DNA from: Clostridiales bacterium
Lineage (GTDB): Bacteria > Bacillota > Clostridia > Christensenellales > UBA1750
Length of the DNA stretch: 58,232 nt
Direction of reading: 5' to 3'
Assembly (NCBI GenBank): GCA_015056005.1
Contig: SVHB01000005.1
Span: 1-58,232, forward strand
Within the stretch, counting starts at the first letter, position 1. The number at the start of each line of letters is the position of its first letter. Position numbers and translations under genes: made by a program. Below are positions 3,788 to 16,950 of the stretch, piece by piece. The notes under the pieces are model-generated. The model searched no databases. It was given only the letters and a program-made list of their open reading frames with translations, and was not told the origin of the DNA.

Positions 3788-4669
3788 ATGAAGTTTTCCG
3801 TTTACTCTGTCGGCATGCCCGAATTTGACATCAAGGAATCCGTTGCGATAGCCAAGAAATACGGCTACGACGGTATTGAATGGCGCGTCGCCCCCATTCC
3901 CGAAAAGGAACCCGAGAGCTATCCCTTTGAGCGCCGCTATTGGGCTTGGAACAAATCCACTCTCGATGAGAAAAATATAATCGAAGATGCACAAAAAGCA
4001 AAGGCTTACTGCGACGAAGCAGGGCTTGAGATATACGGTCTTGCCACCGCCCTTGGCGTATATCAGACCGAGCTGGTCACCGATGCCATCATCGCTGCAG
4101 GCAAGATCGGCTGCCCCATCATCCGCGCAGGTCTTGTCAGCTACGATCCCTACAAGGCAGAAAAGCCCTATAATGAGCTTGTTAAGGACACCAAGGCTAA
4201 GCTTCTGGAATACCTGCCCCTGCTCAAGGAAAACAATGTAAAGATCGTTCTTGAAACGCATCACGGCACCATGATCGCAAGCGCAAGCGCCGCTTACCGC
4301 GTGCTGGAAGGCCTTGACCCCACCTACTACGGCGTCATCTTCGATCCCGGCAACATGGTCGGCGAAGGCTATGAGGATTACAGAAAAGGCTTTGACATTC
4401 TCGGTCCCTATCTTGCCCATGTGCACATCAAGAACTCCGCTCTTGAATATGCAGGCGAGGACGAGCTCGGCTCCGCGATCTACAGGAGTGTTCAGAAGCC
4501 TCTCAACAAGGGTGCGGCAGATCTCAAAAAGCTGTTCGTCGCGCTCAACTCCGTAGGCTACGAAGGCGTTGTCTCAACAGAAGACTTCTCCAACGACGTT
4601 TCCACCGAAGAAAAGCTCGCCTTCAACATCGAATATCTCAAGAAGCTTTACGAAGCCGCAAAGAAATAA
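3788..4669 (+). CDS. Sugar phosphate isomerase/epimerase (xylose isomerase-like TIM barrel)
   Basis: GYDGIEW, LETH, FDPGN, HVHIK and STE metal-ligand pattern. Confidence 0.85.
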   Translation: MKFSVYSVGMPEFDIKESVAIAKKYGYDGIEWRVAPIPEKEPESYPFERRYWAWNKSTLDEKNIIEDAQKAKAYCDEAGLEIYGLATALGVYQTELVTDAIIAAGKIGCPIIRAGLVSYDPYKAEKPYNELVKDTKAKLLEYLPLLKENNVKIVLETHHGTMIASASAAYRVLEGLDPTYYGVIFDPGNMVGEGYEDYRKGFDILGPYLAHVHIKNSALEYAGEDELGSAIYRSVQKPLNKGAADLKKLFVALNSVGYEGVVSTEDFSNDVSTEEKLAFNIEYLKKLYEAAKK

Positions 4670-4684
4670 GTAATATCAATTTAT

Positions 4685-4712
4685 GGGGCAGAATTTTCTG
4701 CCCCTACTTTTT
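4685..4712 (+). terminator. Probable intrinsic terminator
   Basis: GGGGCAGAA/TTCTGCCCC hairpin followed by a T-run. Confidence 0.6.
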
Positions 4713-4726
4713 AGCAGGAGACTTAT

Positions 4727-5527
4727 ATGCCATTAAAATGGAGAGAAAACATCAGGGAAACCGATGTTAACACAATACTTTTGCTTGATGATTTGCATTT
4801 CAGCTATCTTAAGCTTGACGGAATAAACAAAAACCTTGCTCATATCATCAATCATTACCCCTACATCGGCTGGTTTATCAAAAACAAACTTCCCGACTAC
4901 AGCGACTGGGTCGACAGCATGATCGAATATGCAAAAAACGTGCCCGAGCCTTCCAATATGAATACCGTTATCGGTGACTTTTTTGAAAACATATTTGACT
5001 GGGTGATTTATGTTACCGATCCAAACGATTACCATAAGCTTTCGTTTGTCGGCTGGGATGAAGAAGAAATGCTTTGTCTTACCGATTTTTCAGACAAGGT
5101 CGTTGTGGATATAGGCTCCGGCACAGGCAAGCAGGCTTTTGCCGCAGCAAAAACCGCCAAAACCGTGTATTGCGTAGAACCTGTATGGAATCTAAGGCAA
5201 TACCTCAAAAAGCGTGCAAAGGCAGAAAATCACGACAATATTTACGTGGTTGACGGTACGGTAACCGAATTGCCCTATGCGGACGCATTTGCCGATATAG
5301 TGACCTCAGGTCATGTTGTCGGCGATGATATTGACGCAGAGATCAAAGAGATGGAACGCATAACAAAAAAAGGCGGCATGGTGATCATGTGCCCCGGCAA
5401 CGACGATTCCGATAATTCATTTCATAAACAGATAATTTCCCACGGCTATTCATGGGACAGATTCCTTGAACCCGGAAACGACGACGGTTCCGGCTGGAAA
5501 CGCAAATATTGGAAGATAATCGAATAA
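4727..5527 (+). CDS. Class I SAM-dependent methyltransferase
   Basis: VVDIGSGTG motif I, then CVEP, ADIV and KKGG. Confidence 0.85.
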   Translation: MPLKWRENIRETDVNTILLLDDLHFSYLKLDGINKNLAHIINHYPYIGWFIKNKLPDYSDWVDSMIEYAKNVPEPSNMNTVIGDFFENIFDWVIYVTDPNDYHKLSFVGWDEEEMLCLTDFSDKVVVDIGSGTGKQAFAAAKTAKTVYCVEPVWNLRQYLKKRAKAENHDNIYVVDGTVTELPYADAFADIVTSGHVVGDDIDAEIKEMERITKKGGMVIMCPGNDDSDNSFHKQIISHGYSWDRFLEPGNDDGSGWKRKYWKIIE

Positions 5528-5548
5528 GTGCATCAAAACAAAAACAAA

Positions 5549-5574
5549 AAAGCTTCCGAAAATTCGGAAGCTTT
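5549..5574. terminator. Bidirectional terminator
   Basis: AAAGCTTCCGA-N4-TCGGAAGCTTT between convergent genes. Confidence 0.75.
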
Positions 5575-5588
5575 ATTGTTAAGAAGAA

Positions 5589-6239
5589 TTACTTCTTCAT
5601 CTGACCCATAACTTCTTCAACGAAGTTGTCTTCGCGCTTCTGGAGGCCTTCGCCCATTTCGAAGCGGACGAAACGACGGATGGTGATCTTTTCGCCGATG
5701 GTGGCAACAGACTCGGTAACGAGCTGGGAGATGGTCTTGTCAGTGTCCTTAACGAACAGCTGGTCAAGCAGGCAGTTGTCGGTGTAGAACTTCTTGATGC
5801 GGCCTTCAACCATCTTTTCGACGATCTTTTCGGGCTTGCCTTCGTTCAGAGCCTGAGCGCGGAGGATTTCCTTTTCCTTCTCGAGGATCTCAGCGGGAAC
5901 TTCTTCGGCGTTGAGGTAGGTGGGCTTCGCAGCAGCGATGTGCATAGCGATGTCGTGTACCAGAGCCTTGAACTGTTCGGTCTTTGCAACGAAGTCGGTC
6001 TCGCAGTTAACTTCGACCATAACGCCGATCTTGCCACCCATGTGGATGTAGCTGTCTACGATACCTTCGGCAGCGATCCTGCCGGCCTTCTTGGCGGCGG
6101 AAGCGAGGCCCTTTTCACGGAGCAGTTCAGCGGCGCGCTCCATATCGCCGTCGGTCTCAACGAGAGCCTTTTTGCAATCCATCATGCCAACGCCGGTGCG
6201 CTCGCGAAGGATCTTGACGTCTGCAGCAGAAATAGCCAT
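5589..6239 (-). CDS. tsf: Elongation factor Ts (short form)
   Basis: [16 protein letters not shown] and EVNCETDFV motifs; start at ATG 6239 behind GGAGG. Confidence 0.97.
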
Positions 6240-6260
6240 TGCATTTTCCTCCAATAAAAA

Positions 6261-7019
<759 letters not shown>

Positions 7020-7029
7020 GAAAAATTTC

Positions 7030-7141
7030 CTCCTTAATTCCTCCCCGCGCATAAAGTTTTTCCGTAAATGTTCAGGAGACGGATTTACGCGGGTGCGTTT
7101 TGCAACTTGTTTATTATAACACGTTTTTTTGCCCCATGCAA
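7030..7141 (-). promoter_or_regulatory. rpsB promoter and structured 5' leader
   Basis: TTGCAT(7141-7136)-17-TATAAT(7118-7113) with extended TG; leader has nested pairings such as TCCGT/ACGGA. Confidence 0.6.
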
Positions 7142-7187
7142 CAGGGAAATCGTTATTTTCAGCCATATTTTCAATATTTTATTTGCA

Positions 7188-7216
7188 TTGAAGAGGTCTG
7201 TTTACTGTGATATAAT
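7188..7216 (+). promoter_or_regulatory. sigmaA-type promoter of the alpha-xylosidase gene
   Basis: TTGAAG-17-TATAAT with extended TG. Confidence 0.6.
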
Positions 7217-7249
7217 GATACGGTAAATAAACACAAGAGGATAATACAT

Positions 7250-9514
7250 ATGAAATTTACAGACGGATTCTGGAAATTGAAGCCGGGAGTATCAATGATA
7301 CCCGTAATGGAAGTCAAGGACAAGTTTTTTGACGGGAAGACCCTTACCGTTTTTTGCTCCGATGTATTGCACGCAGGCAGGGCCCAAGCGGTCGACCGCC
7401 CAATGATCACGATAGAGTTCTCCGCTCCAAGAGAAGATGTTATCGGAGTAAAGCTTATCCATCACGACGGAAGCACAAAAAAGCTCCCCGCATTCGATAT
7501 TTTCGAAGATGAAAATGCGCCCGAATTCTTTGAAGACGACGCTTCCATCGTTTTTTGCAGCGGAGCTACGAAGGTCATAATAACCAAAAGCCCTTATTCG
7601 CTCGCTTTTTATAAGGGCGAAAGACTTCTGACCAAGAGCTTGAACAAATGCGCTTCCTATATGAAGACAGACATCGGTCCCTTCATGCGCGAGCAGCTCA
7701 CCCTTGACGTGGGTGAATGTGTCTACGGGCTTGGAGAAAGGTTCACACCCTTTGTCAAAAACGGACAGGTCGTGGATATGTGGAACGAGGACGGCGGCAC
7801 CGCCTCCGAGATATCCTATAAAAACATTCCCTTCTATGTTACCAACCGCGGTGTAGGCGTTTTTGTCAACACTCCCGCGCCGGTCAGCTTTGAGGTAGCC
7901 TCCGAGGTCGTTTCCCGCGTTCAGATGAGCCTTGCGGGCGAAAAACTGCAGTATTATGTTATCGGCGGAGACGATATAAAAGAAGTCATCTCCAATTTCT
8001 GCTCTCTTACGGGAAAGCCCGCCCTGCCCCCTGCATGGTCTTTCGGGCTTTGGCTCACCACGTCGTTTACCACCGATTACGACGAAAAAACGGTCAGCAG
8101 CTTTATCGACGGAATGGCTCAAAGGGATATCCCCCTTCGCGTTTTCCATTTCGACTGCTATTGGATGAAGGAATACGAGTGGTGCAATTTTACTTGGGAT
8201 GAACGTGTTTTCCCGGACCCCACAGAGATGCTCAGGCGCTATCACGAAAAAGGGCTCAAGATCTGCTGCTGGATAAACCCCTATATCGCCCAGAAATCTC
8301 CGCTTTTCAAGGAAGGCAGGGATAACGGTTATCTCTTAAAGCGCGCAAACGGCGATGTCTGGCAGTGGGATATGTGGCAGGCGGGCATGGGTCTTGTTGA
8401 TTTCACCAATCCGGATGCGACAAAATGGTATCTTTCCAAGCTCGAAGCACTCCTTGATATGGGCGTTGACTGCTTCAAGACCGATTTTGGAGAGAGGATC
8501 CCCACCGACGTTGTTTATTTCGACGGCTCCGATCCCGTTTACATGCACAATTATTATACCCACCTTTACAACAAAGCAGTATTTGATCTGCTGGAAAGTA
8601 AGCTGGGCAAAAATGAAGCCTGTCTTTTCGCCCGCAGCGCTACCGCCGGCGGCCAGAGGTACCCAGTACACTGGGGCGGCGATTGCGTGAGCGAATATTA
8701 CTCAATGGCAGAGAGCCTCAGAGCCGGTCTTTCCCTCACCTCAAGCGGCTTTGCCTTCTGGAGCCATGATATCTCCGGCTTTGAAAATACCGCTACTCCC
8801 GATCTTTACAAGCGCTGGGCTGCGTTCGGTCTGCTTTCCACCCACAGCAGGCTGCACGGCAGCAAATCCTACCGCGTCCCGTGGCTCTTTGACGACGAAG
8901 CCTGCGATGTGGTCAAATTCTTTACCAACCTCAAATGCCGCCTTATGCCCTATATCTACGCAATGGCGGTCAATGCATCAAAAACCGGCGTTCCTGTCAT
9001 GCGCTCTATGGCTATGGAATTTTTCTCAGATCCCGCCTGCGACAGCCTTGACAGGCAGTATATGCTGGGCGACAACATCCTTGTTGCTCCCGTTTTCAGC
9101 GAGAATAAGACAGCGCAGTGGTATCTGCCCGACGGCACCTGGACTCACCTTCTCTCCCAAAAAAGCTATAAAGGCGGCAGATGGTATAAGGAAGAATTCG
9201 ATTACTTCTCCCTGCCCCTGTTTGCAAGAGAAAATTCGATAATCGTTACGGGTTACTGCGATACCCTGCCCGACTATGACTATACCTTCCTTCCCACCGC
9301 GACCTTATACGAGCTAAACGATAAGGCATCAAGCGAAGTTTACGATATAGACGGCAAGCTCAAGCAGCGCATAGATGCAAAAAGAGAAGGAAGCCGCATC
9401 AATATCAGCCTGCTTTCACCTGCAAAGGGAATGAAGATCGAAATAAAAGCAGGAGATATTTCAAAAACCGTGCAGATCGCAGACGACAGGCTTACACTCA
9501 CGATAGATATATAG
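7250..9514 (+). CDS. yicI: Alpha-xylosidase, GH31
   Basis: MKFTDGFW start; FHFDCYWM, nucleophile KTDFGERIP and acid/base HWGGD motifs. Confidence 0.95.
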   Translation: MKFTDGFWKLKPGVSMIPVMEVKDKFFDGKTLTVFCSDVLHAGRAQAVDRPMITIEFSAPREDVIGVKLIHHDGSTKKLPAFDIFEDENAPEFFEDDASIVFCSGATKVIITKSPYSLAFYKGERLLTKSLNKCASYMKTDIGPFMREQLTLDVGECVYGLGERFTPFVKNGQVVDMWNEDGGTASEISYKNIPFYVTNRGVGVFVNTPAPVSFEVASEVVSRVQMSLAGEKLQYYVIGGDDIKEVISNFCSLTGKPALPPAWSFGLWLTTSFTTDYDEKTVSSFIDGMAQRDIPLRVFHFDCYWMKEYEWCNFTWDERVFPDPTEMLRRYHEKGLKICCWINPYIAQKSPLFKEGRDNGYLLKRANGDVWQWDMWQAGMGLVDFTNPDATKWYLSKLEALLDMGVDCFKTDFGERIPTDVVYFDGSDPVYMHNYYTHLYNKAVFDLLESKLGKNEACLFARSATAGGQRYPVHWGGDCVSEYYSMAESLRAGLSLTSSGFAFWSHDISGFENTATPDLYKRWAAFGLLSTHSRLHGSKSYRVPWLFDDEACDVVKFFTNLKCRLMPYIYAMAVNASKTGVPVMRSMAMEFFSDPACDSLDRQYMLGDNILVAPVFSENKTAQWYLPDGTWTHLLSQKSYKGGRWYKEEFDYFSLPLFARENSIIVTGYCDTLPDYDYTFLPTATLYELNDKASSEVYDIDGKLKQRIDAKREGSRINISLLSPAKGMKIEIKAGDISKTVQIADDRLTLTIDI

Positions 9515-9526
9515 GAGGATATATAA

Positions 9527-10216
9527 ATGGAACTTACAAACAAAGTGACCGCTTTTATGAAGGAGATCGGCGCCGATCTGGTCGGTATTGGTGATGTTGA
9601 AGGGATCGCTCCCGAAGGATTCAGGCGCGCCGTGGTCTGCGCCGTTGCCGTCCCGCTTGATATCGTACGCAAGATTCCCGAAGGCCCCACTCCCGATTAT
9701 CCCGAAAAATACGAAACTATGAACAAATATATGGATATGATAGCCGTAAAGGGCGCGGAGTTCATCAACTCTCTTGGCTATCGTTCTATTCCCCTTGTTG
9801 GCTCAAATGTCAAGATCAACAGAGAAAAAATGATGAGCGAATTCCCCTATAAGACCGCCGCCACAAGAGCAGGCCTTGGCTGGATCGGCAAAAACGACCT
9901 TCTCATTACTCCTCAGTTTGGTCCCGGAATCAGGCTCACTGTCGTCCTCACCGACGCGCCCCTTAAAGCCGCAGTGCCTGTAAACGAATCCGGCTGCGGC
10001 AGCTGCAGCGCATGCGTTGACATTTGCCCCGGAAAAGCCATATCCGGCAAGCTCTGGTACGCGGGCATCAATCGCGAAGAGCTTGTAAACATAGAATTGT
10101 GCATGAAGGGCGCGGCGCAGGTTGCCGAAAAGACACTCGGCAAGCCCTCAGGCCTTTGCGGAAAATGCTTCGCAGTCTGCCCCTATACTCAAAAATACTT
10201 AAACAGCGCCAAATAG
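9527..10216 (+). CDS. QueG-like (epoxyqueuosine reductase family) 4Fe-4S protein
   Basis: KTAATRAGLGWIGKN.L, CGSCSACVDICP and CGKCFAVCP. Confidence 0.8.
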   Translation: MELTNKVTAFMKEIGADLVGIGDVEGIAPEGFRRAVVCAVAVPLDIVRKIPEGPTPDYPEKYETMNKYMDMIAVKGAEFINSLGYRSIPLVGSNVKINREKMMSEFPYKTAATRAGLGWIGKNDLLITPQFGPGIRLTVVLTDAPLKAAVPVNESGCGSCSACVDICPGKAISGKLWYAGINREELVNIELCMKGAAQVAEKTLGKPSGLCGKCFAVCPYTQKYLNSAK

Positions 10217-10217
10217 T

Positions 10218-10257
10218 AAAAAAAGCTTGAGCGGATAAGTACGGTGTCCATAAAACA
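10218..10257 (+). repeat. Left terminal inverted repeat
   Basis: AAAAAAAGCTTGAGCGGATAAGTACGGTGTCCATAAAACA. Confidence 0.88.
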
Positions 10258-10375
10258 GTAAATATTATCGTGTCCAAACACGACTTCAAGTTATATACTT
10301 GGAGTCATGTTTTTGCTTTTACAGAAAGGGAATCTTTCATGAACAGAGAAAGATTTTTGAAAAACAGGAGGTTTT

Positions 10376-10663
10376 ATGAGAACAGGACTTACCAAGAGAG
10401 AAAAGACCACTGCAATCTATTTTGACGCGTACGGCAGCACGATCGATGTGCAGACCCATAACACCGATCTGAAAAAGCGGCTGACCGCATTTACAAAAGA
10501 ATACCCCCAATGCTGCCGCCTGATTGACGATGACGAGCAAGGCGGACTGACCTTTGAGATCGAAAAAGGCAGATTGAGTTTCCAGCTGACTTCGCCGTAC
10601 AGCGAGGATCGGAAAAAGGCGGCAAGTGAGTGGGCGAAGATGCATGGAATTAGCCAAAAATGA
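10376..10663 (+). CDS. Small hypothetical protein of a type I recall from Clostridia mobile elements
   Basis: 95-aa ORF behind AGGAGG, first gene inside the left repeat; no functional motif recognised. Confidence 0.7.
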   Translation: MRTGLTKREKTTAIYFDAYGSTIDVQTHNTDLKKRLTAFTKEYPQCCRLIDDDEQGGLTFEIEKGRLSFQLTSPYSEDRKKAASEWAKMHGISQK

Positions 10664-10682
10664 CGAACAGTGGTGGCGTTGG

Positions 10683-10711
10683 TTGAAAAATTCACATTAT
10701 ATTCGTATAAT
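10683..10711 (+). promoter_or_regulatory. sigmaA-type promoter of the nuclease gene
   Basis: TTGAAA-17-TATAAT; GAGGAGG RBS at 10729-10735. Confidence 0.7.
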
Positions 10712-10744
10712 ATGTATAAAAATCTGTAGAGGAGGCTGTACGAA

Positions 10745-11638
10745 GTGAAAGAGCGTAAAATCACGAATGAAATGTTAGATGCCTTTTTGCATGGAGAACT
10801 TCATCCGCTCTTAGAGGCTGTTAAGAAAGATGACACATTAGATTTAGAACTTCGTGGAAACTCTGTTAACATTTATTACAGAGGCGGAAGCCTATTTAAG
10901 ATCACGGAGAAAAAAGGAAATTATACAGTATTCTTCAACAAGAAATATTGTATGACCGACAACTCTGTTCTTGAAGAGTACCCTGATGTCAAATCAGCTG
11001 TTGATAACATTCCTTTTTATAAACAGGCGATGGATTGGTGGTTCCATGAGCACCCCAAATATGAAAGAGAGTTTCAGCAAGTCATTGCCCGTGAAAACAA
11101 CAACCTCGGAAATATTTCCAGAGGAACTGACTACTATATTGTGGATATAGAGTATGCCAACAAAGTCGATGTTGCTGACAAATCAGCACGATTCGATATG
11201 GTAGCTCTAAAGTGGCTCTCTGATGGAGCAACTCGAAAAGATGTCAAAAAGGTATCACTGGCTCTTGTTGAAGTAAAGTTTGGTAACGGCGCATTGCAGG
11301 GCAAAGCTGGCGTTAGCGATCATCTTAAAGATTTCCAGCGTTTTCTGTCCGATCAAAATTTCTTCAAAGAGTTTTGTGAAGATATGTCTGTCGTATTTGC
11401 TCAAAAGTGCCAATTAGGTCTGGTGGATGGATTGCAGAAAAAACAGTTTGAAGTGAAAATCAGCTGTGAAAATCCGGAAGTCATTTTCGTGTTTGCCAAC
11501 CATGATCCCGATAGCAAAATACTTGATAATATTTTGCTATGCAATGAACTTAAAACTTGTTCATTCCCCGTACTGATTGCCAATGCATCGAGCATGGGAT
11601 ACTGCCTCTATGCTGATCAGCTTACGAAAATAAATTAA
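10745..11638 (+). CDS. Putative PD-(D/E)XK nuclease-fold protein
   Basis: GTG start; EREFQQ helix, then IVDIEY, RFDMVAL and LVEVKFG in nuclease motif order. Confidence 0.65.
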   Translation: MKERKITNEMLDAFLHGELHPLLEAVKKDDTLDLELRGNSVNIYYRGGSLFKITEKKGNYTVFFNKKYCMTDNSVLEEYPDVKSAVDNIPFYKQAMDWWFHEHPKYEREFQQVIARENNNLGNISRGTDYYIVDIEYANKVDVADKSARFDMVALKWLSDGATRKDVKKVSLALVEVKFGNGALQGKAGVSDHLKDFQRFLSDQNFFKEFCEDMSVVFAQKCQLGLVDGLQKKQFEVKISCENPEVIFVFANHDPDSKILDNILLCNELKTCSFPVLIANASSMGYCLYADQLTKIN

Positions 11639-11718
11639 AAGTTTTTTAACCCTACCACCCTGTTGTCGTGGCGGTTTGCTATACTGTTTGCAAACGAACA
11701 CAACAGGAGGATTTTCTC

Positions 11719-12042
11719 ATGAATAACCAAGGTGAGAACCGCAGCAAAACAGGCGACGATCTTGTTTGTCCAAACTGCGGTGGTCATCAAGTGCGATGGG
11801 TTCCCTATCCCAAGATCGAGTTCGGCTCGATGTTTATTCTTTGGCTCATTATTTCTTTGATAACGGTCAAGGGTACGATCATCGTATTTGTCGCAGGCGC
11901 AGTTTATTGGAGCATAGCATTGGTAATTCGTCTGAAGCAAAACAGCCGTGCAAACCTTGTGAATCGGATGCACTGCGACACTTGCGGCGTAAATTTTGAA
12001 GTGGATAAGAATATTTTTTCGGAAGGAGGTCAGAAGAAATGA
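11719..12042 (+). CDS. Small membrane protein with a split zinc ribbon (LITAF-like layout)
   Basis: ATG 11719 behind AGGAGG; CPNC, two hydrophobic helices, then CDTC. Confidence 0.75.
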   Translation: MNNQGENRSKTGDDLVCPNCGGHQVRWVPYPKIEFGSMFILWLIISLITVKGTIIVFVAGAVYWSIALVIRLKQNSRANLVNRMHCDTCGVNFEVDKNIFSEGGQKK

Positions 12043-12647
12043 GGGGAGAACATCGCATTATTACATTTGGCTTGACGGATGAACAAAACGAAATCGTCAA
12101 AGCCAATATTCCGGCGAGAGATTACGAGGTGTTTGATACCGATGCCCCAACCGATATCATTGCCATAGGAAGTATTGCAACGGTCATTCAGGCATCTGAA
12201 CTGGATGAAGATTCTGTTGGTATGCTGTTTGACTATTACACGCAGATCAACGGCTGCACAGATGAAACAGTTATTTGGCTCGGTGATCCAAAGCCTCCGA
12301 AGGAACTCCAAAAATTCTTCAGGTGCTATCCTTCCTTTGCTGACATTGAGGATAAGCTGAAATATCTTCTTGTGAACGCACATTCCAAAAGCAAGAAAGC
12401 GGCGGACTACAGTGAGAAACTGGTAAATGGACTTTTGATTCTGTCAATCATTCGTAAGAAACCGGGTGTCACGACAAAAGAACTTTCGGAAAAAGTCAGC
12501 TTACCTATCCGCAGCGTTCAACGGTATATTGCGGCATTACAGGCTACCGGAGAATGGCTTGAGTATGACAGAACCCTGAAAGGATGGAAGCTGTCTTATG
12601 GCGTTTCCATGCTGTTCGGGGATGTATGGGACGGTGAAATCAAATGA
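12039..12647 (+). CDS. Protein with an alpha/beta (pseudo-receiver-like) N-domain and a C-terminal winged HTH
   Basis: VTTKELSEKVSLPIRSVQRYIAAL HTH with wing LEYDRTLKGWKL; ATGA overlap with the upstream gene. Confidence 0.75.
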   Translation: MRGEHRIITFGLTDEQNEIVKANIPARDYEVFDTDAPTDIIAIGSIATVIQASELDEDSVGMLFDYYTQINGCTDETVIWLGDPKPPKELQKFFRCYPSFADIEDKLKYLLVNAHSKSKKAADYSEKLVNGLLILSIIRKKPGVTTKELSEKVSLPIRSVQRYIAALQATGEWLEYDRTLKGWKLSYGVSMLFGDVWDGEIK

Positions 12648-13825
12648 AAACCATCATACACCGTGGAACTCACCAGATCGGTGGCATCGCTACTGAGATT
12701 CGCACAGAGAATACCCGTATACTCATTGATATGGGTGACGAGCTATCACTTGATCCCGATTTCGTTTCTTCGCCGTTGAATATTCCCGGTGTAACTGATG
12801 CCAACGGAATATGTGATGCCGTCTTCTTCACTCATTACCACGGTGATCACACCGGGCAGATGACACGAATCAGAGATGACATCCCCCTTTACACAGGTGC
12901 TCTTGCAAAAGAGATCATGCAGCTGTCGGCAGAACGCAGTTACCACAAAAATCAGGTCCTTTGTGATAGAATCAAGACGCTCCACACATTCAACGGCGGC
13001 GAAGAATTGATAATCGGTGACATCCGTATCACACCTTGGTCCATCGACCACTCAGCCTGTGACAGTTATCTGTTTCTGATCGAAGCAGATGGCAAGCGCG
13101 TTCTATATACCGGGGATTTTCGGATGCACGGATTTAGAGGCAAGGTTCTGCCGAAGATCCTTCATAAAATCGGAAAGGTTGATGTTCTGGTTACCGAAGG
13201 CACAACCTTGTCCCGACCGGACGAGAAGCCGATGACGGAGCGAGAGCTGCAGCAAAAAGTCAGAGAGTACATGACGCAGTACAAGTATGTTTATGTCATG
13301 TGCGCCTCCACCAATTTGGAGCGTATTTGCGCGCTGTCGAAGGCTGTTCCCAGAGGAAAGTATTTCATTTGCGACGGTTATCAGAAAGCCTTGATGGAGC
13401 TTGTGGAACATCACTGGGGAACGCTGTCGCCGTTATATCGTGATTTGAAGAAAACAGTCTACGGGGACAATATTTTCGAAGCGATGAAAGAACGGGGCTT
13501 CCTAATGACGGTGCGGGACAATCGAGATTTTAGAAATATCATCAGCAAATTTGACAGAGAGAAAAGCATCATGCTGTACTCCATGTGGGACGGCTATCGC
13601 ACGAAACCTGGCAGCACAATCCCTGAATTTTTGAATCTTACCGGTCGTTGGGAACCGCTGCATACCAGCGGTCACGCATCGCACAGTGATCTGAAAAAGG
13701 TAGTTGATATTGCAAACCCGGAGATGGTCGTTCCGATGCACAACGATAATCCCGATATGCTGCAGATACTTTGTCCAGATACAAAAATTAAACTTGTAAA
13801 TGACGGAGAGGAGGTTACGCTATGA
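12644..13825 (+). CDS. RNase J-like metallo-beta-lactamase/beta-CASP nuclease
   Basis: QIGG, IDMG, THYHGDH, DHS, YTGDFR, TEGT, HTSGH and VPMH motifs all present. Confidence 0.9.
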   Translation: MKTIIHRGTHQIGGIATEIRTENTRILIDMGDELSLDPDFVSSPLNIPGVTDANGICDAVFFTHYHGDHTGQMTRIRDDIPLYTGALAKEIMQLSAERSYHKNQVLCDRIKTLHTFNGGEELIIGDIRITPWSIDHSACDSYLFLIEADGKRVLYTGDFRMHGFRGKVLPKILHKIGKVDVLVTEGTTLSRPDEKPMTERELQQKVREYMTQYKYVYVMCASTNLERICALSKAVPRGKYFICDGYQKALMELVEHHWGTLSPLYRDLKKTVYGDNIFEAMKERGFLMTVRDNRDFRNIISKFDREKSIMLYSMWDGYRTKPGSTIPEFLNLTGRWEPLHTSGHASHSDLKKVVDIANPEMVVPMHNDNPDMLQILCPDTKIKLVNDGEEVTL

Positions 13826-14823
13826 TAAAAAACCAGATTCTTTGCCTTGGTCTAAGTCGTGTCGAACTGCAGACACTTTATATCCGCTTCCCAATTCTTT
13901 ATCAGTTCTATCAGGTGCAGAGTGAAGATTTTGACGACATTCAGAAGATCAAAATGATGGTCAGCGAGTCGGTATGTCTCTTTATCAATCCGAAGAAGTT
14001 GAATGGACTGCAACTGAACGACTTGCTTCGGGAGCATAAATATGCAGCGGCGCATACTCACACTTCTGTTCTGTTGTTTACTTCTGCATTTACAAAGGAG
14101 CAGCGCTATGAGGTGGACACGGAAGCTCTCCATCGGGTTGATCTTAAGGCCAGATTTGACAAGACTCTTCGGGACGCTGTGGAATTCATTCGCAAAGCCT
14201 CTATGCCCTGTTGGGATGGATTGAAGCGTATGGAAGGAAATATGTTCAATGATGGTTGGTATTTGCTTGACTTAACCTCTACCGGCCTTGATCCCACATC
14301 TGATGAAGTGATTGCCATCACGATTGCTTTTATGGGTCAGTACGAATTACGAGAAAAAGAGACGATATACATCAAACCTTCTCGCCCGCTGACAGCAGAT
14401 GACGAAGCTATTACCGGTATCACAAACGAGATGCTGGAAAATGGAATGAGCAAGGAAGATGCCGTGTCTTATCTGGATAATCTTCCGCATCCTTCACCTT
14501 TTATCATAGAGACGGAAAAATACGATTATCCGGCCTTGAAGGCACTGTACCATTTCTGCGGAAAGAAATTCGATCATCCTTATATTGCAATTGATGGACT
14601 TGCCGCCATTGCTTTCGGGTACAAATTGCTCAGACGGAGCAGCGATTTGGTGAAAGCGGTATCAGACAAGATGCAGCTATATATTCCGGAAGAAGAAAGA
14701 TATATCGCTGAGCTTTACGCGTTGACGCTTGCGGTATTTGAAAACCTGAGAGACCGATATGATGTTCGATGCCCCGGACAGTTTAAGTCACTCTACTTTG
14801 GCGAAACCCATTGTTGCGACTAA
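13822..14823 (+). CDS. Alpha/beta N-domain fused to a degenerate DnaQ/DEDD exonuclease domain
   Basis: LLDLTSTGLDPTSDEVIAI, IKPSRPL..ITGITNEML and IDGL; ExoI Glu and ExoIII His/Asp not seen. Confidence 0.75.
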   Translation: MIKNQILCLGLSRVELQTLYIRFPILYQFYQVQSEDFDDIQKIKMMVSESVCLFINPKKLNGLQLNDLLREHKYAAAHTHTSVLLFTSAFTKEQRYEVDTEALHRVDLKARFDKTLRDAVEFIRKASMPCWDGLKRMEGNMFNDGWYLLDLTSTGLDPTSDEVIAITIAFMGQYELREKETIYIKPSRPLTADDEAITGITNEMLENGMSKEDAVSYLDNLPHPSPFIIETEKYDYPALKALYHFCGKKFDHPYIAIDGLAAIAFGYKLLRRSSDLVKAVSDKMQLYIPEEERYIAELYALTLAVFENLRDRYDVRCPGQFKSLYFGETHCCD

Positions 14824-14840
14824 CAAGAATAATCCCTTTG

Positions 14841-14966
14841 AAACAAGGGGCGCACTTCTATACAGGGGCAAGCGCTGTATGTGCGCTCTGCAAGGCAGAC
14901 AGCCCGGACGATTGAAGGCTGGCTGTTTTGCATCACTTTGTTCCAAACAAGGGGCTGTACCCCTTG
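14841..14966 (+). other. Putative MOBQ (MobA/MobL)-type origin of transfer
   Basis: Nested inverted repeat GCGCAC..ATACAG/CTGTAT-GTGCGC followed by TCT, resembling the TAAGTGCGCCCT nic motif; second hairpin CAAGGGG/CCCCTTG at 14948-14966. Confidence 0.6.
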
Positions 14967-15030
14967 CGCCGCTGTGCGGCTATCCTAAAAAGGAAAACCT
15001 CTGCATGAATGACTCATGCAGAGGTTTAAG

Positions 15031-15070
15031 TGTTTTATGGCCACCCACCTTATCCGTTCAAGCTTTTTTT
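15031..15070 (-). repeat. Right terminal inverted repeat
   Basis: Reverse complement AAAAAAAGCTTGAACGGATAAGGTGGGTGGCCATAAAACA. Confidence 0.88.
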
Positions 15071-15084
15071 ATAGTATCGTAATC

Positions 15085-15612
15085 TTATTCGGGCTTTTGC
15101 TGTTGACCTTTCCAATCTTTATCAAGAAGACCGTAAAAATGCAAATCAGCCGGGCTGCCGTATTCGTCCTTAGACGCATTGGGCTCTATACATTCAAAAC
15201 GCATACCCAGTTTTTTCATCAGCCCCACCGACTTCACAGTGTCGATCGTTTCTGAAAACACCTTATGGGCGCTTAGCTCAGAAAAAGCATAGTCGATCAC
15301 AGCCTTTAAGGATTCATAGGCAAAGCCCTGTCCCCAGAAGCTGCGGTTAAATATCCAGCCCATTTCATACACGCCCTTTTCCTGCTCGTTGAACAGGATG
15401 TAGCCTATCACCTTTCCGCTTTCCTTATGAACTGCCGCAAAAGCTCCGCTGCGACCGATGCAGAAAGACGCCAGAAAATCCTTTGTTTTTTCGAAGCTGT
15501 ATGCAGGCTCGCAGTTTTTCATCGTCTCTGGGTCGCCCAAAATCTCATAGAGGTCCTGTGCATCCTCAGATATAAAATTGCGTATGATCATTCTCTGTGT
15601 TTCTGTGTACAT
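15085..15612 (-). CDS. GNAT acetyltransferase, RimJ/RimL-like
   Basis: ETQRMIIR, EMGW..WGQGFAYE and KKLGM. Confidence 0.88.
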   Translation of the reverse strand: MYTETQRMIIRNFISEDAQDLYEILGDPETMKNCEPAYSFEKTKDFLASFCIGRSGAFAAVHKESGKVIGYILFNEQEKGVYEMGWIFNRSFWGQGFAYESLKAVIDYAFSELSAHKVFSETIDTVKSVGLMKKLGMRFECIEPNASKDEYGSPADLHFYGLLDKDWKGQQQKPE

Positions 15613-15623
15613 CTTTATACCTC

Positions 15624-16112
15624 TTAATAATCAAACTCATGTTCAAAAACTTTGATCTTCTGCGTCAGCTTTTCGCCTTGGTACGGTTTGCGCACCTCGA
15701 TCAGATTCAAAACAGTATATCCGCGTTTGCGCAGGAATTCTATCATGCTGTGGTTGTTGGGATGAACATAGTTGTAAACGGTATCTTCGCCGTATAAAGC
15801 GGCTGTTTCTTCCGCCTTTTTGTAGAGAGCAGATGCAACACCGCGGCGGCGGTATTCCTCTTTGACAAAAACAGACTCCACCCACACAACTCCGCTGTCC
15901 ACCCGGCAAACCACATAGCCAGCGTATTCATCGTTTACAAGACAAACAAATACCGGAAATTTTGCTTCAAGGTATTCTTCTATTTCCTCCCTGCCTGTTT
16001 CAACGCTGGGTTTGGATATTATTCCTTTATATGAACGCAGCTCCACGCGAAACAGCGCAGCCATTTGTGCAAGCGCATCGTTTGCCTGCCTGACTTCCAA
16101 TACTTGCACCAA
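15624..16112 (-). CDS. GNAT acetyltransferase
   Basis: FVKEEYRRRGVASAL acetyl-CoA motif A; N..MIEF..RGY. Confidence 0.88.
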   Translation of the reverse strand: MVQVLEVRQANDALAQMAALFRVELRSYKGIISKPSVETGREEIEEYLEAKFPVFVCLVNDEYAGYVVCRVDSGVVWVESVFVKEEYRRRGVASALYKKAEETAALYGEDTVYNYVHPNNHSMIEFLRKRGYTVLNLIEVRKPYQGEKLTQKIKVFEHEFDY

Positions 16113-16274
16113 GTCTCACTCCCTTATATAAAATGCAGTTGCTTTGATAATAATAGCACAAAACCATGAATATGACCAATGGTTTGCTTATAAATCGTAC
16201 CTCATCAGCGTTTTGCGCAGCACAGACTGACGACAGTTTTTCCCTTGAAAGCATTTCCGCCGTTTTACTGGGTA

Positions 16275-16381
16275 TTGACTATATCATCAAATCATGGTAA
16301 AATGTATCTAACTTAAAACTTTCTTTTGCGGGAAACATTCTCCCGCAAAAATAAAACCTCAGAGTTAGCAGTGGCTAACTC
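16275..16381 (+). promoter_or_regulatory. Promoter with a palindromic operator upstream of the DUF3793-like gene
   Basis: TTGACT-17-TAAAAT with extended TG; perfect GAGTTAGC-N4-GCTAACTC at 16362-16381. Confidence 0.65.
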
Positions 16382-16401
16382 AAATGAAAGAAGGTGTGCG
16401 A

Positions 16402-16950
16402 ATGTTTGAAGAGATGTTGGTTTTCCACTGCGCCCCCACCCTCGCGGGTATGAAAACGGGCAGCATGTTTTCCGCAAAATATAAAGACGAAAGCGAAATG
16501 CGGCTGAGCCTTTCCGCTCTTAACCGCACGCTGAGGAACAAAGGCATACGGATACTCCCGCTCAGGTTTGATTCCGGCAAAGCGCTGCTTTATATATACC
16601 GCCCGTCAAAGCTCAAAGACGATCTTTGCCGCGAAAGCGCAAAATGCATACTCGAGCCAAACGGCTATAAATGCGCTCATCCCGAAAAATGCATAGTGCA
16701 TCTGATATCAAAGATGCGCCAAAGCGATGATTTTCCTCATGAGATAGGGCTTTTTCTGGGCTATCCTCCCGAGGATGTTCTGGGGTTCATAAATGATCCC
16801 GAGGGCTGCAAATGCGTTGGCTGCTGGAAGGTATATTCCGACGTTGAAAGCGCTCGGAAGCTGTTTGCAAAATACAAAAAATGCACCGATGTTTATCGGC
16901 GCCACCACAAAAACGGAAAAACCATCGAAAAGCTCACTGTAGCGGTATAG
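16402..16950 (+). CDS. DUF3793-family protein
   Basis: HCAPTLAGMK, FPHEIGLFLGYP..DV.GF and G.WKVY; start at ATG 16402 behind GAAGGTG. Confidence 0.85.
   Translation: MFEEMLVFHCAPTLAGMKTGSMFSAKYKDESEMRLSLSALNRTLRNKGIRILPLRFDSGKALLYIYRPSKLKDDLCRESAKCILEPNGYKCAHPEKCIVHLISKMRQSDDFPHEIGLFLGYPPEDVLGFINDPEGCKCVGCWKVYSDVESARKLFAKYKKCTDVYRRHHKNGKTIEKLTVAV

What the first reader, a model, noticed from the sequence alone, without database searches (positions are those of the whole stretch)
10745..14823. Candidate uncharacterised multi-nuclease system: PD-(D/E)XK, membrane Zn-ribbon, wHTH, beta-CASP and degenerate DnaQ
Seen: five co-oriented genes fill the element. The last four are linked by three ATGA stop/start overlaps (12039-42, 12644-47, 13822-25), and three proteins have nuclease folds. 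Known: PD-(D/E)XK, MBL and DEDD domains and small membrane proteins recur in anti-phage systems, and mobile elements carry such systems. Inference: a sensor-regulator-effector module for defence or abortive infection. I do not recognise this combination as a named system, but novelty was not tested.
Basis: partly seen in the sequence, partly recalled or inferred. Interest (0 to 1): 0.85.

Follow-up and report, generated by a model that had tools for sequence, protein, structure and literature searches.

The report
Mobile-element operon built around paired nucleases
A five-gene operon carried by a small mobile element is built around an unstudied protein that always travels with, and is sometimes fused to, a metal-dependent nuclease; it looks like a new conflict or defence module, but its function is untested.

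Summary

The real core is g1 plus g4. They lie together in 32 of 48 well-flanked loci. Their divergence is correlated (Spearman 0.88). Four proteins fuse them. g2, g3 and g5 are accessories of one lineage, which rides in the cargo slot of small MobA/serine-recombinase elements.

The g1 family is large (1761 clusters) but patchy (5 of 301 genomes of the order) and crosses phyla. Elsewhere it pairs with WYL regulators and with HD, calcineurin-like, PARG-like and REase-type enzymes. No described defence system matches.

A defence-type nuclease module is the best reading (about 0.4). Nucleic-acid repair and an element-selfish role remain open.

The parts
10217..10262 (.). Left arm of a 46-nt inverted repeat that brackets the cassette
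   Evidence: 46 nt, 85% complementary. Unique pair in the own genome. A direct ATAGT lies just outside both arms.
10376..10663 (+). g0, a 95-aa backbone gene of the mobile element, not part of the nuclease operon
   Evidence: It is 57% identical to a 98-aa gene that sits between a serine recombinase and the cargo in L128. Metagenome depth is 5-15 times that of the operon body. Weak phrog_1709 hit.
10683..10711 (+). Promoter-like site in front of g1 (TTGAAA-17-TATAAT)
   Evidence: 11 of 12 matches. A GAGGAGG ribosome site lies 8 nt before the GTG of g1. Consensus match only.
10745..11638 (+). g1 (called G1 here): uncharacterised family of about 300 aa with a conserved D...ExK motif; constant partner of the MBL nuclease
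   Evidence: family size and invariant residues; pairing and fusion with the MBL.
11668..12042 (+). g2: small membrane protein, a split zinc ribbon (CPNC ... 2 TM ... CxTC); likely true start 11719
12039..12647 (+). g3: N-terminal domain of about 110 aa of unknown family plus a C-terminal winged HTH; presumed operon regulator
   Evidence: HTH_24, residues 132-171; alignment; no PDB relative.
12644..13825 (+). g4: beta-CASP metallo-beta-lactamase nuclease, all motifs intact
   Evidence: H64, H66, D68, H69, H136, D158, E185, H344 and H366 are invariant in 25 of 25 sequences.
13822..14823 (+). g5: N-terminal domain of about 135 aa of unknown family plus a DnaQ/PolC-type DEDD fold with a degenerate active site
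14827..14985 (+). Conserved structured non-coding region, read as an oriT-like site of the carrier element
   Evidence: It is more conserved than the genes (74-94% against about 65%). It lies just upstream of MobA/MobL genes in L004, L008 and L128. It has a hairpin with 4 compensatory pairs. It is multi-copy in metagenomes.
14995..15027 (.). Perfect 14-bp hairpin, terminator-like on both strands
   Evidence: (I18).
15026..15071 (.). Right arm of the 46-nt inverted repeat
   Evidence: Its inner half is shared with the related cassette in L002; its outer half is not.

Best explanation
This is an accessory five-gene operon that sits in the cargo position of a small mobilizable element. Its working core is a two-part nuclease: G1 (g1, about 300 aa, PD-(D/E)XK-like D...ExK motif) acts together with g4, a catalytically intact beta-CASP metallo-beta-lactamase nuclease, probably as one complex.

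I read the whole as a conflict (defence-type) module. G1 supplies target recognition and perhaps a second cut, and the beta-CASP enzyme degrades the nucleic acid.

g3 (unknown N-domain plus wHTH) is the in-operon transcription regulator. g5 (a possibly related N-domain plus an inactive DEDD fold) is a non-catalytic subunit that binds or senses nucleic-acid 3' ends, or modulates g3. g2 is a lineage-specific membrane accessory.

Shown: gene structure, domain identities, G1-MBL co-occurrence and fusion, patchy cross-phylum spread, carriage on mobile elements.

Inferred: physical complex, substrate, division of labour, and the defence role itself.
For: Core pair.
- The MBL lies within 6 kb of G1 in 32 of 48 loci that have at least 3.3 kb on both sides, and on the same strand in 47 of 49 pairs.
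- Identity to the window proteins is correlated for the two genes (Spearman 0.88, 32 non-redundant pairs, not phylogenetically independent).
- Four natural fusions run MBL(1-~410)-G1(~420-712) (P0342, P0344, P0346, P0347).
- The g4 catalytic residues are invariant in 25 of 25 sequences.

Accessory and mobile behaviour.
- G1 was found in 2 of 20 genomes of the family and 5 of 301 of the order, own genome included.
- Yet relatives occur in records titled Oscillospiraceae, Dialister, Selenomonas, Mucispirillum, Brachyspira, Geobacter and Bacteroidales.
- The five-gene form lies between an XRE regulator and oriT-MobA-serine recombinase.

Modularity typical of conflict systems.
- G1 also pairs with a REase-ARP/PDDEXK_13 nuclease, fused in L035 and split in L037.
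- It pairs with Metallophos, HD, PARG-like and ADP-ribosylglycohydrolase enzymes.
- It sits with WYL regulators in two other gene orders.

Defence genes sometimes abut it. PDC-S01 is present in 10 of 105 loci. In L016 a type III R-M replaces most of the MBL.
Against: - No PADLOC model matches any of the five proteins beyond generic domains.
- G1 was not found in 72,556 plasmid or 50,697 phage records.
- Many loci lie among housekeeping genes (Sua5, RpiB, SHMT-like, Pol III alpha).
- 15 of 48 well-flanked G1 loci have none of the four partners.
- Enrichment near defence genes was not tested against a control.
- The G1 fold is unproven.
- WYL regulators and beta-CASP, DEDD and PARG-type enzymes fit DNA-damage repair equally well (recalled knowledge).
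- There is no experimental phenotype.
Confidence: 0.4

Rival explanations
1. This is a repair or processing module for damaged or chemically modified nucleic acid, for example ADP-ribosylated or end-blocked DNA or RNA. G1 and the beta-CASP enzyme would excise or trim the lesion, and the wHTH or WYL regulators would switch the operon on when damage appears.
For: G1 neighbours include PARG-like macro-domain proteins (9 of 105 loci), ADP-ribosylglycohydrolase (2 of 105), HD (12 of 105) and calcineurin-like phosphoesterases (5 of 105), together with WYL regulators (14 of 105). Recalled, not from any call: WYL proteins such as PafBC and DriD control DNA-damage regulons, and SNM1/Artemis-type beta-CASP enzymes repair DNA. 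The DEDD fold of g5 is closest to proofreading exonucleases.
Against: The gene is very patchy (5 of 301 genomes of the order) and is carried on mobile elements, which is unusual for a repair pathway. The ADP-ribose enzymes are absent from the five-gene form. g4 carries the His at motif C and the RMMBL region, which in recalled literature go with RNA rather than DNA substrates.
Confidence: 0.25
2. The function is element-selfish. The cassette helps the mobilizable element itself, either by degrading host immune signals or nucleic acids on entry (anti-defence) or by acting as an addiction or stabilisation module.
For: The five-gene form sits directly upstream of the oriT-like site and the relaxase gene in small elements of about 8-9 kb. 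An in-operon DNA-binding regulator next to nucleases resembles toxin-antitoxin logic. Recalled, not from any call: MBL, HD and calcineurin-like enzymes include phage enzymes that destroy cyclic-nucleotide immune signals (Apyc1).
Against: G1-MBL pairs also occur away from any relaxase or recombinase, and as single fused chromosomal proteins. g4 is a full beta-CASP nuclease, not a minimal phosphodiesterase. In L128 the same slot carries an unrelated methyltransferase, so the slot is for cargo, not for backbone functions.
Confidence: 0.15
3. This is ordinary RNA turnover: g4 is just a divergent RNase J-like housekeeping ribonuclease with helper proteins.
For: The best named matches of g4 are RNase J and aCPSF1 family models and structures.
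Against: Scores lie far below the family cut-offs (60 bits against 400). The own genome holds a separate weak MBL match elsewhere (C91). The gene is missing from 296 of 301 genomes of the order as judged by its obligate partner G1. It rides on a mobile element.
Confidence: 0.05

Closest known systems
EF2904 of Enterococcus faecalis (PDB 2AZ4), a stand-alone beta-CASP protein of unknown function
   Same: It is the best solved relative of g4 (E 1.2e-15, residues 52-374 aligned). It has a similar length (429 aa) and MBL plus beta-CASP domains without extra RNA-binding modules (passage read in PMC3095777).
   Different: The relationship is distant. No function is known for it, and I could not examine whether it has a G1-like neighbour.
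RNase J / aCPSF1 beta-CASP ribonucleases
   Same: Same fold and the same motif set, including His at motif C and the RMMBL region.
   Different: Scores are far below the family thresholds (60 against 400 bits; 45 against 580). g4 has no KH or C-terminal dimerisation domains. It is accessory, patchy and coupled to G1.
Cas14, the beta-CASP effector of type VII CRISPR-Cas
   Same: It is a beta-CASP nuclease used as an immune effector (abstract of PMC13069675 seen in the listing).
   Different: NCBIfam cas14_MBL_CASP scores only 14.4 bits against a cut-off of 800. There are no Cas5/Cas7 genes or CRISPR array in the cassette.
PD-(D/E)XK defence nucleases (Shedu SduA, REase-ARP/PDDEXK_13, NucS-type)
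   Same: G1 has a D...ExK motif. The nearest named ESM-Atlas clusters carry these families (0.88, 0.83, 0.76). G1 is fused to a REase-ARP domain in L035.
   Different: There is no significant sequence or profile match. In L035 the REase-ARP domain is a second domain, distinct from G1.
PolC/DnaQ/DinG-type DEDDh 3'-5' exonuclease domains
   Same: g5 residues 142-260 align to the PolC exonuclease domain 2P1J (2.9e-14) and to the DinG exonuclease 8ZEF (9e-10).
   Different: The acidic tetrad is incomplete in 33 of 35 family members and in the window protein. g5 has an extra N-terminal domain of 135 aa.
WYL-regulated defence operons (BrxR/CapW type; recalled)
   Same: WYL+WCX regulators sit in G1 clusters of two other gene orders. 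The HTH of g3 matches the PADLOC WYL model over its HTH part (3.8e-06).
   Different: g3 has no WYL domain; its N-domain belongs to no known family.
Small serine-recombinase / MobA-MobL integrative mobilizable elements (Tn4451-like; recalled)
   Same: Relatives of the cassette lie between an XRE regulator and oriT-MobA-serine recombinase. The window keeps g0 and the oriT-like region.
   Different: The window and its genome have no relaxase, and only a 26% serine-recombinase match on another contig.

Membership tests
PD-(D/E)XK nuclease superfamily (g1) | Conserved acidic/lysine motif D ... (D/E)xK | tested here: met
   D151 and E176 are invariant and K178 is at least 90% conserved in 52 diverse sequences. 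E107/E109 and D134/E136 are also conserved.
PD-(D/E)XK nuclease superfamily (g1) | Significant sequence or profile similarity to a known member | tested here: not met
   No Pfam, NCBIfam, PADLOC or PHROG hit. 0 of 39 members hit any PDDEXK family at E<=10. PDB searches with two profiles gave only chance hits. hhalign against the REase-ARP domain gave probability 0.3%.
PD-(D/E)XK nuclease superfamily (g1) | alpha-beta-beta-beta-alpha-beta core fold | not testable with these tools
beta-CASP metallo-beta-lactamase nucleases (g4) | MBL motifs HxHxDH, H and D, plus beta-CASP motifs A (D/E), B (H) and C (H/V) | tested here: met
   H64, H66, D68, H69, H136, D158, E185, H344 and H366 are invariant in 25 of 25 sequences. 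Pfam Lactamase_B_2 and RMMBL score above their cut-offs. PDB relatives are all beta-CASP proteins.
RNase J (equivalog) (g4) | Score above the curated family cut-off | tested here: not met
   TIGR00649 scores 60 bits against 400; NF047419 scores 50 against 820.
DEDD (DnaQ-like) 3'-5' exonucleases (g5) | Homology of the fold | tested here: met
   RNase_T scores 30 bits against a cut-off of 24. PolC exonuclease 2P1J matches at 2.9e-14 with the family profile.
DEDD (DnaQ-like) 3'-5' exonucleases (g5) | Four invariant acidic residues plus H/Y | tested here: not met
   The window protein reads D150, T152, D235, Y299, A300. Only 2 of 35 members read D-E-D-Y-D.
Any described defence system in PADLOC-DB v2.0.0 | Match of the component proteins to a system's models | tested here: not met
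   Only generic domain hits were found (WYL-HTH, DEDDh, LmuA at E 0.024). There were none for g1, g2 or g0, and none for the partner families of the other G1 clusters except WYL, HD/Cas3 and PDC-S01. Newer catalogues such as DefenseFinder could not be run.
CARF-wHTH regulators (Csa3-like) (g3) | N-terminal CARF domain | tested here: not met
   The PADLOC CARF3 hits (E 0.0022 and 0.011) cover residues 102-185, which is the HTH part, not the N-domain.
Receiver (CheY-like) domain (N-domains of g3 and g5) | Profile similarity and a phospho-acceptor Asp | tested here: inconclusive
   g3 against g5 by hhalign gives E 0.0067 but probability 5.7%. The Atlas leads for g5 1-135 are 'response regulatory domain' and OKR_DC_1_N at 0.83-0.84 only. 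Both proteins carry Asn where an acceptor Asp would be expected; that placement is my own reading.
Transposon or mobile insertion cassette with terminal inverted repeats | TIRs, target-site duplication, repeated ends elsewhere, a transposase | tested here: inconclusive
   The 46-nt IRs and a flanking direct ATAGT are present. There is no transposase. The ends are unique in the genome. An 18-nt end pattern gave only single one-mismatch hits in 7 of 300 other genomes, similar to the reversed-pattern control.
Integrative mobilizable element (MobA/MobL + serine recombinase) | Relaxase, recombinase and oriT within the element | tested here: not met
   Only the oriT-like region and g0 are present in the window. 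There is no MobA match in the genome. Relatives of the cassette do lie in complete elements.

The most novel reading that the evidence does not exclude
G1 plus a beta-CASP nuclease is the core of a previously undescribed, widespread family of conflict systems, with 1761 clusters at 50% identity. An uncharacterised recognition/nuclease subunit is coupled, by adjacency or fusion, to interchangeable hydrolases: beta-CASP, REase-type, calcineurin-like, HD, and PARG or ADP-ribosylglycohydrolase enzymes. It is controlled by WYL or pseudo-receiver-wHTH regulators. The ADP-ribose hydrolase partners hint that the family senses or processes ADP-ribosylated or otherwise marked nucleic acid.
Probability: 0.3. 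Interest if true: 0.8.

Novelty: new variant of a known kind. Interest (0 to 1): 0.6.

Why it matters
If the reading holds, a large protein family with no model in Pfam, NCBIfam or PADLOC gains a functional anchor: an obligate partnership with a beta-CASP nuclease. It would also give a second case, besides type VII CRISPR, of a beta-CASP enzyme recruited for genetic conflict in bacteria.

The cassette is small (4.1 kb; the core pair is 2.1 kb), and natural single-chain fusions exist, so the hypothesis can be tested directly by expression, phage and plasmid challenge and nuclease assays.

It also shows how small mobilizable elements of gut anaerobes swap cargo at a fixed slot beside their transfer origin.

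Tried and rejected
The ESM Atlas has no model. PDB sequence searches with profiles A1 and A8 gave only chance hits. A Pfam scan of all 39 members at E<=10 showed no recurring family.
- G1 against the REase-ARP domain of L035 by hhalign: probability 0.3%, rejected as evidence of homology.
- Complex prediction on G1 plus MBL: no verdict. It is not used as evidence either way.
- CARF reading of g3: rejected, because the hits fall on the HTH part.
- Rfam on 9500-16500: nothing credible.
- Plasmid and phage collections with G1: no match.
- PDB searches for two partner families of other G1 clusters (f13, f18): nothing.
- Empty-site search: relatives match only single flanking genes on separate contigs, so no empty site could be reconstructed.
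- IR end as a repeated transposon end: chance-level hits only.
- Literature: searches for 'REase-ARP', PARG/WYL/MBL/REase, beta-CASP plus anti-phage, the NAD-ADPr terms and MBL fold/defense islands/WYL found no description of this gene set. PMC10853773 was searched by 'find' and held nothing relevant. Supplements were not available.
- RNA run X20: 13 contig pieces at 90-99% likeness lie on parts of g1, g3, g4 and g5. The tool warns that this does not show transcription, and the pieces come from a relative, so I make no expression claim.
- Habitat: runs with small shares (X19-X21) were not used.

Full report
**What is there.** The window holds five co-oriented ORFs exactly as reported.
- g1: 10745-11638, 297 aa
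- g2: 11668-12042, 124 aa
- g3: 12039-12647, 202 aa
- g4: 12644-13825, 393 aa
- g5: 13822-14823, 333 aa

ATGA stop/start overlaps stand at 12039, 12644 and 13822. A near-consensus promoter-like site (10683-10711) and a GAGGAGG ribosome site precede g1. The better start for g2 is ATG 11719, behind AGGAGG.

The genes lie between two arms of a 46-nt inverted repeat, 10217-10262 and 15026-15071. G+C inside is 0.44, against 0.50 for the whole window. The same interval also holds a 95-aa gene (g0, 10376-10663) and a conserved non-coding stretch (14827-14985). So the five genes do not quite 'fill' it.

**Domain identities.**
[quoted passage not shown] It matches Lactamase_B_2 and RMMBL above their cut-offs. 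Its nearest solved relatives are the hypothetical beta-CASP protein EF2904 (2AZ4, 1.2e-15), aCPSF1 and RNase J. All nine motif residues (HxHxDH, H136, D158, motif A E185, B H344, C H366) are invariant in 25 of 25 relatives. It is not an RNase J by NCBI's threshold (60 against 400 bits).
- g5 residues 142-260 are a DnaQ/PolC-type DEDD fold.
- g3 has a winged HTH at residues 132-171 behind an N-domain of about 110 aa with no known relative.
- g2 is a split zinc ribbon. CPNC and CxTC are invariant in 12 of 12 homologues, and two hydrophobic helices lie between them.
- g1 (G1) has no match in Pfam, NCBIfam, PADLOC or PHROGs, and none in PDB sequences with two profiles. D151 and E176-x-K178 are invariant or nearly so across 52 diverse members. 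The nearest named ESM-Atlas clusters carry REase-ARP/PDDEXK_13, NucS_C and SduA_C at 0.88-0.76, which the tool rates as leads only. PD-(D/E)XK is therefore plausible but not shown.

**The conserved unit is G1 plus the MBL nuclease.** I fetched 119 loci around G1 relatives: 37 from species genomes, 2 viral contigs and 80 metagenome contigs. Many of them are near-duplicates of one another.
- Among the 48 loci with at least 3.3 kb on both sides of G1, a g4-like MBL lies within 6 kb in 32. All four partners are present in 9, and none in 15.
- Over all 119 loci, 13 show g2-g3-g4-g5 after G1 in the window's order. These 13 belong to essentially one lineage, about 64% identical to the window in G1 and g4 and 40-48% identical in g2 and g5.
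- G1 and the MBL are on the same strand in 47 of 49 pairs. Their identities to the window proteins are correlated (Spearman 0.88 over 32 non-redundant pairs, which are not phylogenetically independent).
- A search for longer relatives found four proteins of 731-763 aa. In each, a full g4-like MBL (residues 1 to about 410, E 1e-41 to 1e-47) is followed by a full G1 (about 420-712). One of them is named 'MBL fold metallo-hydrolase' of Marinospirillum minutulum by its source.

Adjacency, correlated divergence and fusion together make a physical and functional partnership the best-supported statement in this report. g2, g3 and g5 are accessories. Some loci have G1-wHTH-MBL (L012, L014). Others have wHTH-MBL-DEDD-G1 (L011). 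The Dialister loci keep only remnants of g3 and g5 around an intact G1-MBL pair.

**G1 is a large, patchy, mobile family with swappable partners.** A profile search of 1.84 billion cluster representatives found 1761 proteins at E<=1e-3, and 538 at E<=1e-30. Yet G1 occurs in only 2 of 20 genomes of the window's family and 5 of 301 genomes of its order, own genome included. None of the 30 nearest relatives matches the DNA of 10745-14823. The record titles of the genome loci span several phyla. G1 was absent from the plasmid and phage collections.

Among 105 loci with a called G1, the neighbours within a few genes were as follows (Pfam identities).

| Neighbour | Loci (of 105) |
|---|---|
| MBL | 42 |
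| wHTH | 18 |
| DEDD | 15 |
| WYL+WCX regulators | 14 |
| HD | 12 |
| PDC-S01 | 10 |
| PARG-like protein | 9 |
| Metallophos | 5 |
| ADP-ribosylglycohydrolase | 2 |

In L035, G1 is fused to a REase-ARP/PDDEXK_13 nuclease domain. In L037 the same two parts are separate genes. A constant component with interchangeable hydrolase partners and in-operon regulators is the usual pattern of conflict systems. It is also compatible with a damage-repair toolkit.

**Mobile context.** In the five-gene lineage the order is XRE regulator, small genes, G1-g2-g3-g4-g5, a conserved non-coding region, MobA/MobL relaxase, and (in L004 and L051) a large serine recombinase. In L128, from a complete genome, the same backbone carries an RlmA-like methyltransferase instead. 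Its order is serine recombinase, g0-like gene, cargo, non-coding region, MobA, Toprim/AAA protein. So the five genes occupy a cargo slot.

The non-coding region (14827-14985) has these properties:
- It is better conserved than the genes.
- It forms a hairpin with four compensatory pairs.
- It lies just upstream of the relaxase genes.
- It occurs in other genomes without the cassette.
- Like g0, it has 5-30 times the depth of the operon body in three gut metagenome runs.

I read it as an oriT-like site. The likeness of its core to MOBQ nick regions is recalled, not tested. The window's genome has no relaxase, so here the cassette is a stranded fragment or an element mobilised in trans.

The 46-nt inverted repeats are unique to this locus. 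They are flanked by a direct ATAGT. Whether they are transposon ends, recombinase attachment half-sites or a split palindromic terminator is unresolved.

**Is it defence?** No PADLOC v2 system matches. A PADLOC scan covered 150 neighbour ORFs, the first 150 of 306 non-redundant neighbour families, from loci L002-L028 only. It found a type III R-M pair, PDC-S01, two mad2 hits, two capH hits, several methyltransferases, one TIR-NLR and one IetA hit. The type III Res subunit is confirmed in L016, where it replaces all but the first 40 residues of the MBL. Many other neighbours are housekeeping genes, and I had no control for enrichment.

I therefore rank the readings as follows:
- a defence-type two-nuclease module, about 0.4;
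- a repair or processing module for damaged or modified nucleic acid, 0.25;
- an element-selfish role, 0.15;
- plain RNA turnover, 0.05.

**Proposed mechanism (inference).** G1 and g4 form a complex. G1 gives substrate recognition and perhaps a first cut, and the beta-CASP enzyme degrades. Its motif C His and its RMMBL region point, by recalled rule, towards RNA or single strands. g3 represses or activates the operon at the promoter before g1. g5, catalytically dead in most members, binds 3' ends or nucleotides.

The N-domains of g3 and g5 align end to end, but only weakly (hhalign E 0.0067, probability 5.7%). They may be pseudo-receiver domains (Atlas leads at 0.84), which would let g5 talk to g3. 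The role of g2 is unknown. The complex prediction for G1 plus MBL gave no verdict and is not evidence.

**Novelty.** Five literature searches and the family libraries found no description of G1 or of this gene set. The closest knowns are EF2904, RNase J, Cas14 of type VII CRISPR, PD-(D/E)XK defence nucleases and WYL-regulated operons. I rate it a new variant of a known kind (nuclease-based accessory or conflict operons on mobile elements). The G1 family itself is uncharacterised.

Noticed in passing
window 14827-14985; also L008 14072-14232, L004, L003, L005, L128 8224-8393, L129-L133: A conserved structured non-coding element with an outer GCGCAC/GTGCGC stem and an inner stem showing 4 compensatory pairs. 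It lies just upstream of MobA/MobL genes, and also occurs in relatives' genomes without the cassette or a relaxase. Its depth in gut metagenomes is 10-30 times that of the operon. It has no Rfam family. I read it as oriT-like.
   Followed up: partly
window 10217-10262 and 15026-15071: A 46-nt inverted repeat (85%) brackets g0, the operon and the oriT-like region, with a direct ATAGT just outside both arms. It has no transposase, is unique in the genome, and is not a repeated end in 300 genomes of the order. Only the inner half of the right arm is shared with the related cassette in L002.
   Followed up: partly
L128 (G022:C1) 4169-11245: A complete small mobilizable element: large serine recombinase, a g0-like gene, an RlmA-like rRNA methyltransferase in the cargo slot, the oriT-like region, a MobA/MobL relaxase, and a Toprim/DUF3991/AAA_25 protein. 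Two further serine-recombinase genes lie nearby.
   Followed up: partly
L098-L118, L038, L039 (for example L100 and L107): A different G1 gene cluster: WYL+WCX regulator, an unknown 139-aa protein, an HD-domain protein, an unknown 300-aa protein, G1, and a protein of about 600 aa with a microbial PARG catalytic domain. Two copies lie on IMG/VR contigs.
   Followed up: partly
L019, L020, L065-L080, L084: A cluster in records titled Phascolarctobacterium, with shuffled order: unknown 242-aa and 184-aa proteins, a 95-aa DnaB-like fragment, G1, an unknown 345-aa protein, a small ORF, a divergent MBL (30% to g4) and a WYL regulator. A PDC-S01-type ATPase lies beside it. G1 changes its position within the cluster between contigs.
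   Followed up: partly
L035 9998-11884; L037 7785-9625: G1 is fused to a REase-ARP/PDDEXK_13 nuclease domain in one 628-aa ORF. The same two parts are adjacent separate genes in L037 (56-57% identity).
   Followed up: yes
L001 (whole contig): A mosaic cassette: G1 is 89% identical to the window, but g3 is 71%, g4 69% and g5 only 36%, and g2 is missing. This suggests recombination between cassette lineages.
   Followed up: no
L003, L005, L006, L056, L057, L071 (records titled Dialister): An intact G1-MBL pair sits between Sua5 and RpiB genes. A remnant of the C-terminus of g3 lies between the two genes, an N-terminal fragment of a g5-like gene lies after them, and the oriT-like region follows. 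This is a decayed copy of the longer cassette.
   Followed up: partly
L016 926-6442: After G1-wHTH, only the first 40 codons of the MBL remain. A type III restriction-modification pair (EcoP15I-like Res, 4.5e-69 to 4ZCF) follows on the other strand.
   Followed up: yes
L029, L030 (G1 of 507-553 aa), P0297, P0341, P0343, P0298: G1 relatives carry extensions of 200-330 aa of unknown family at either end.
   Followed up: no
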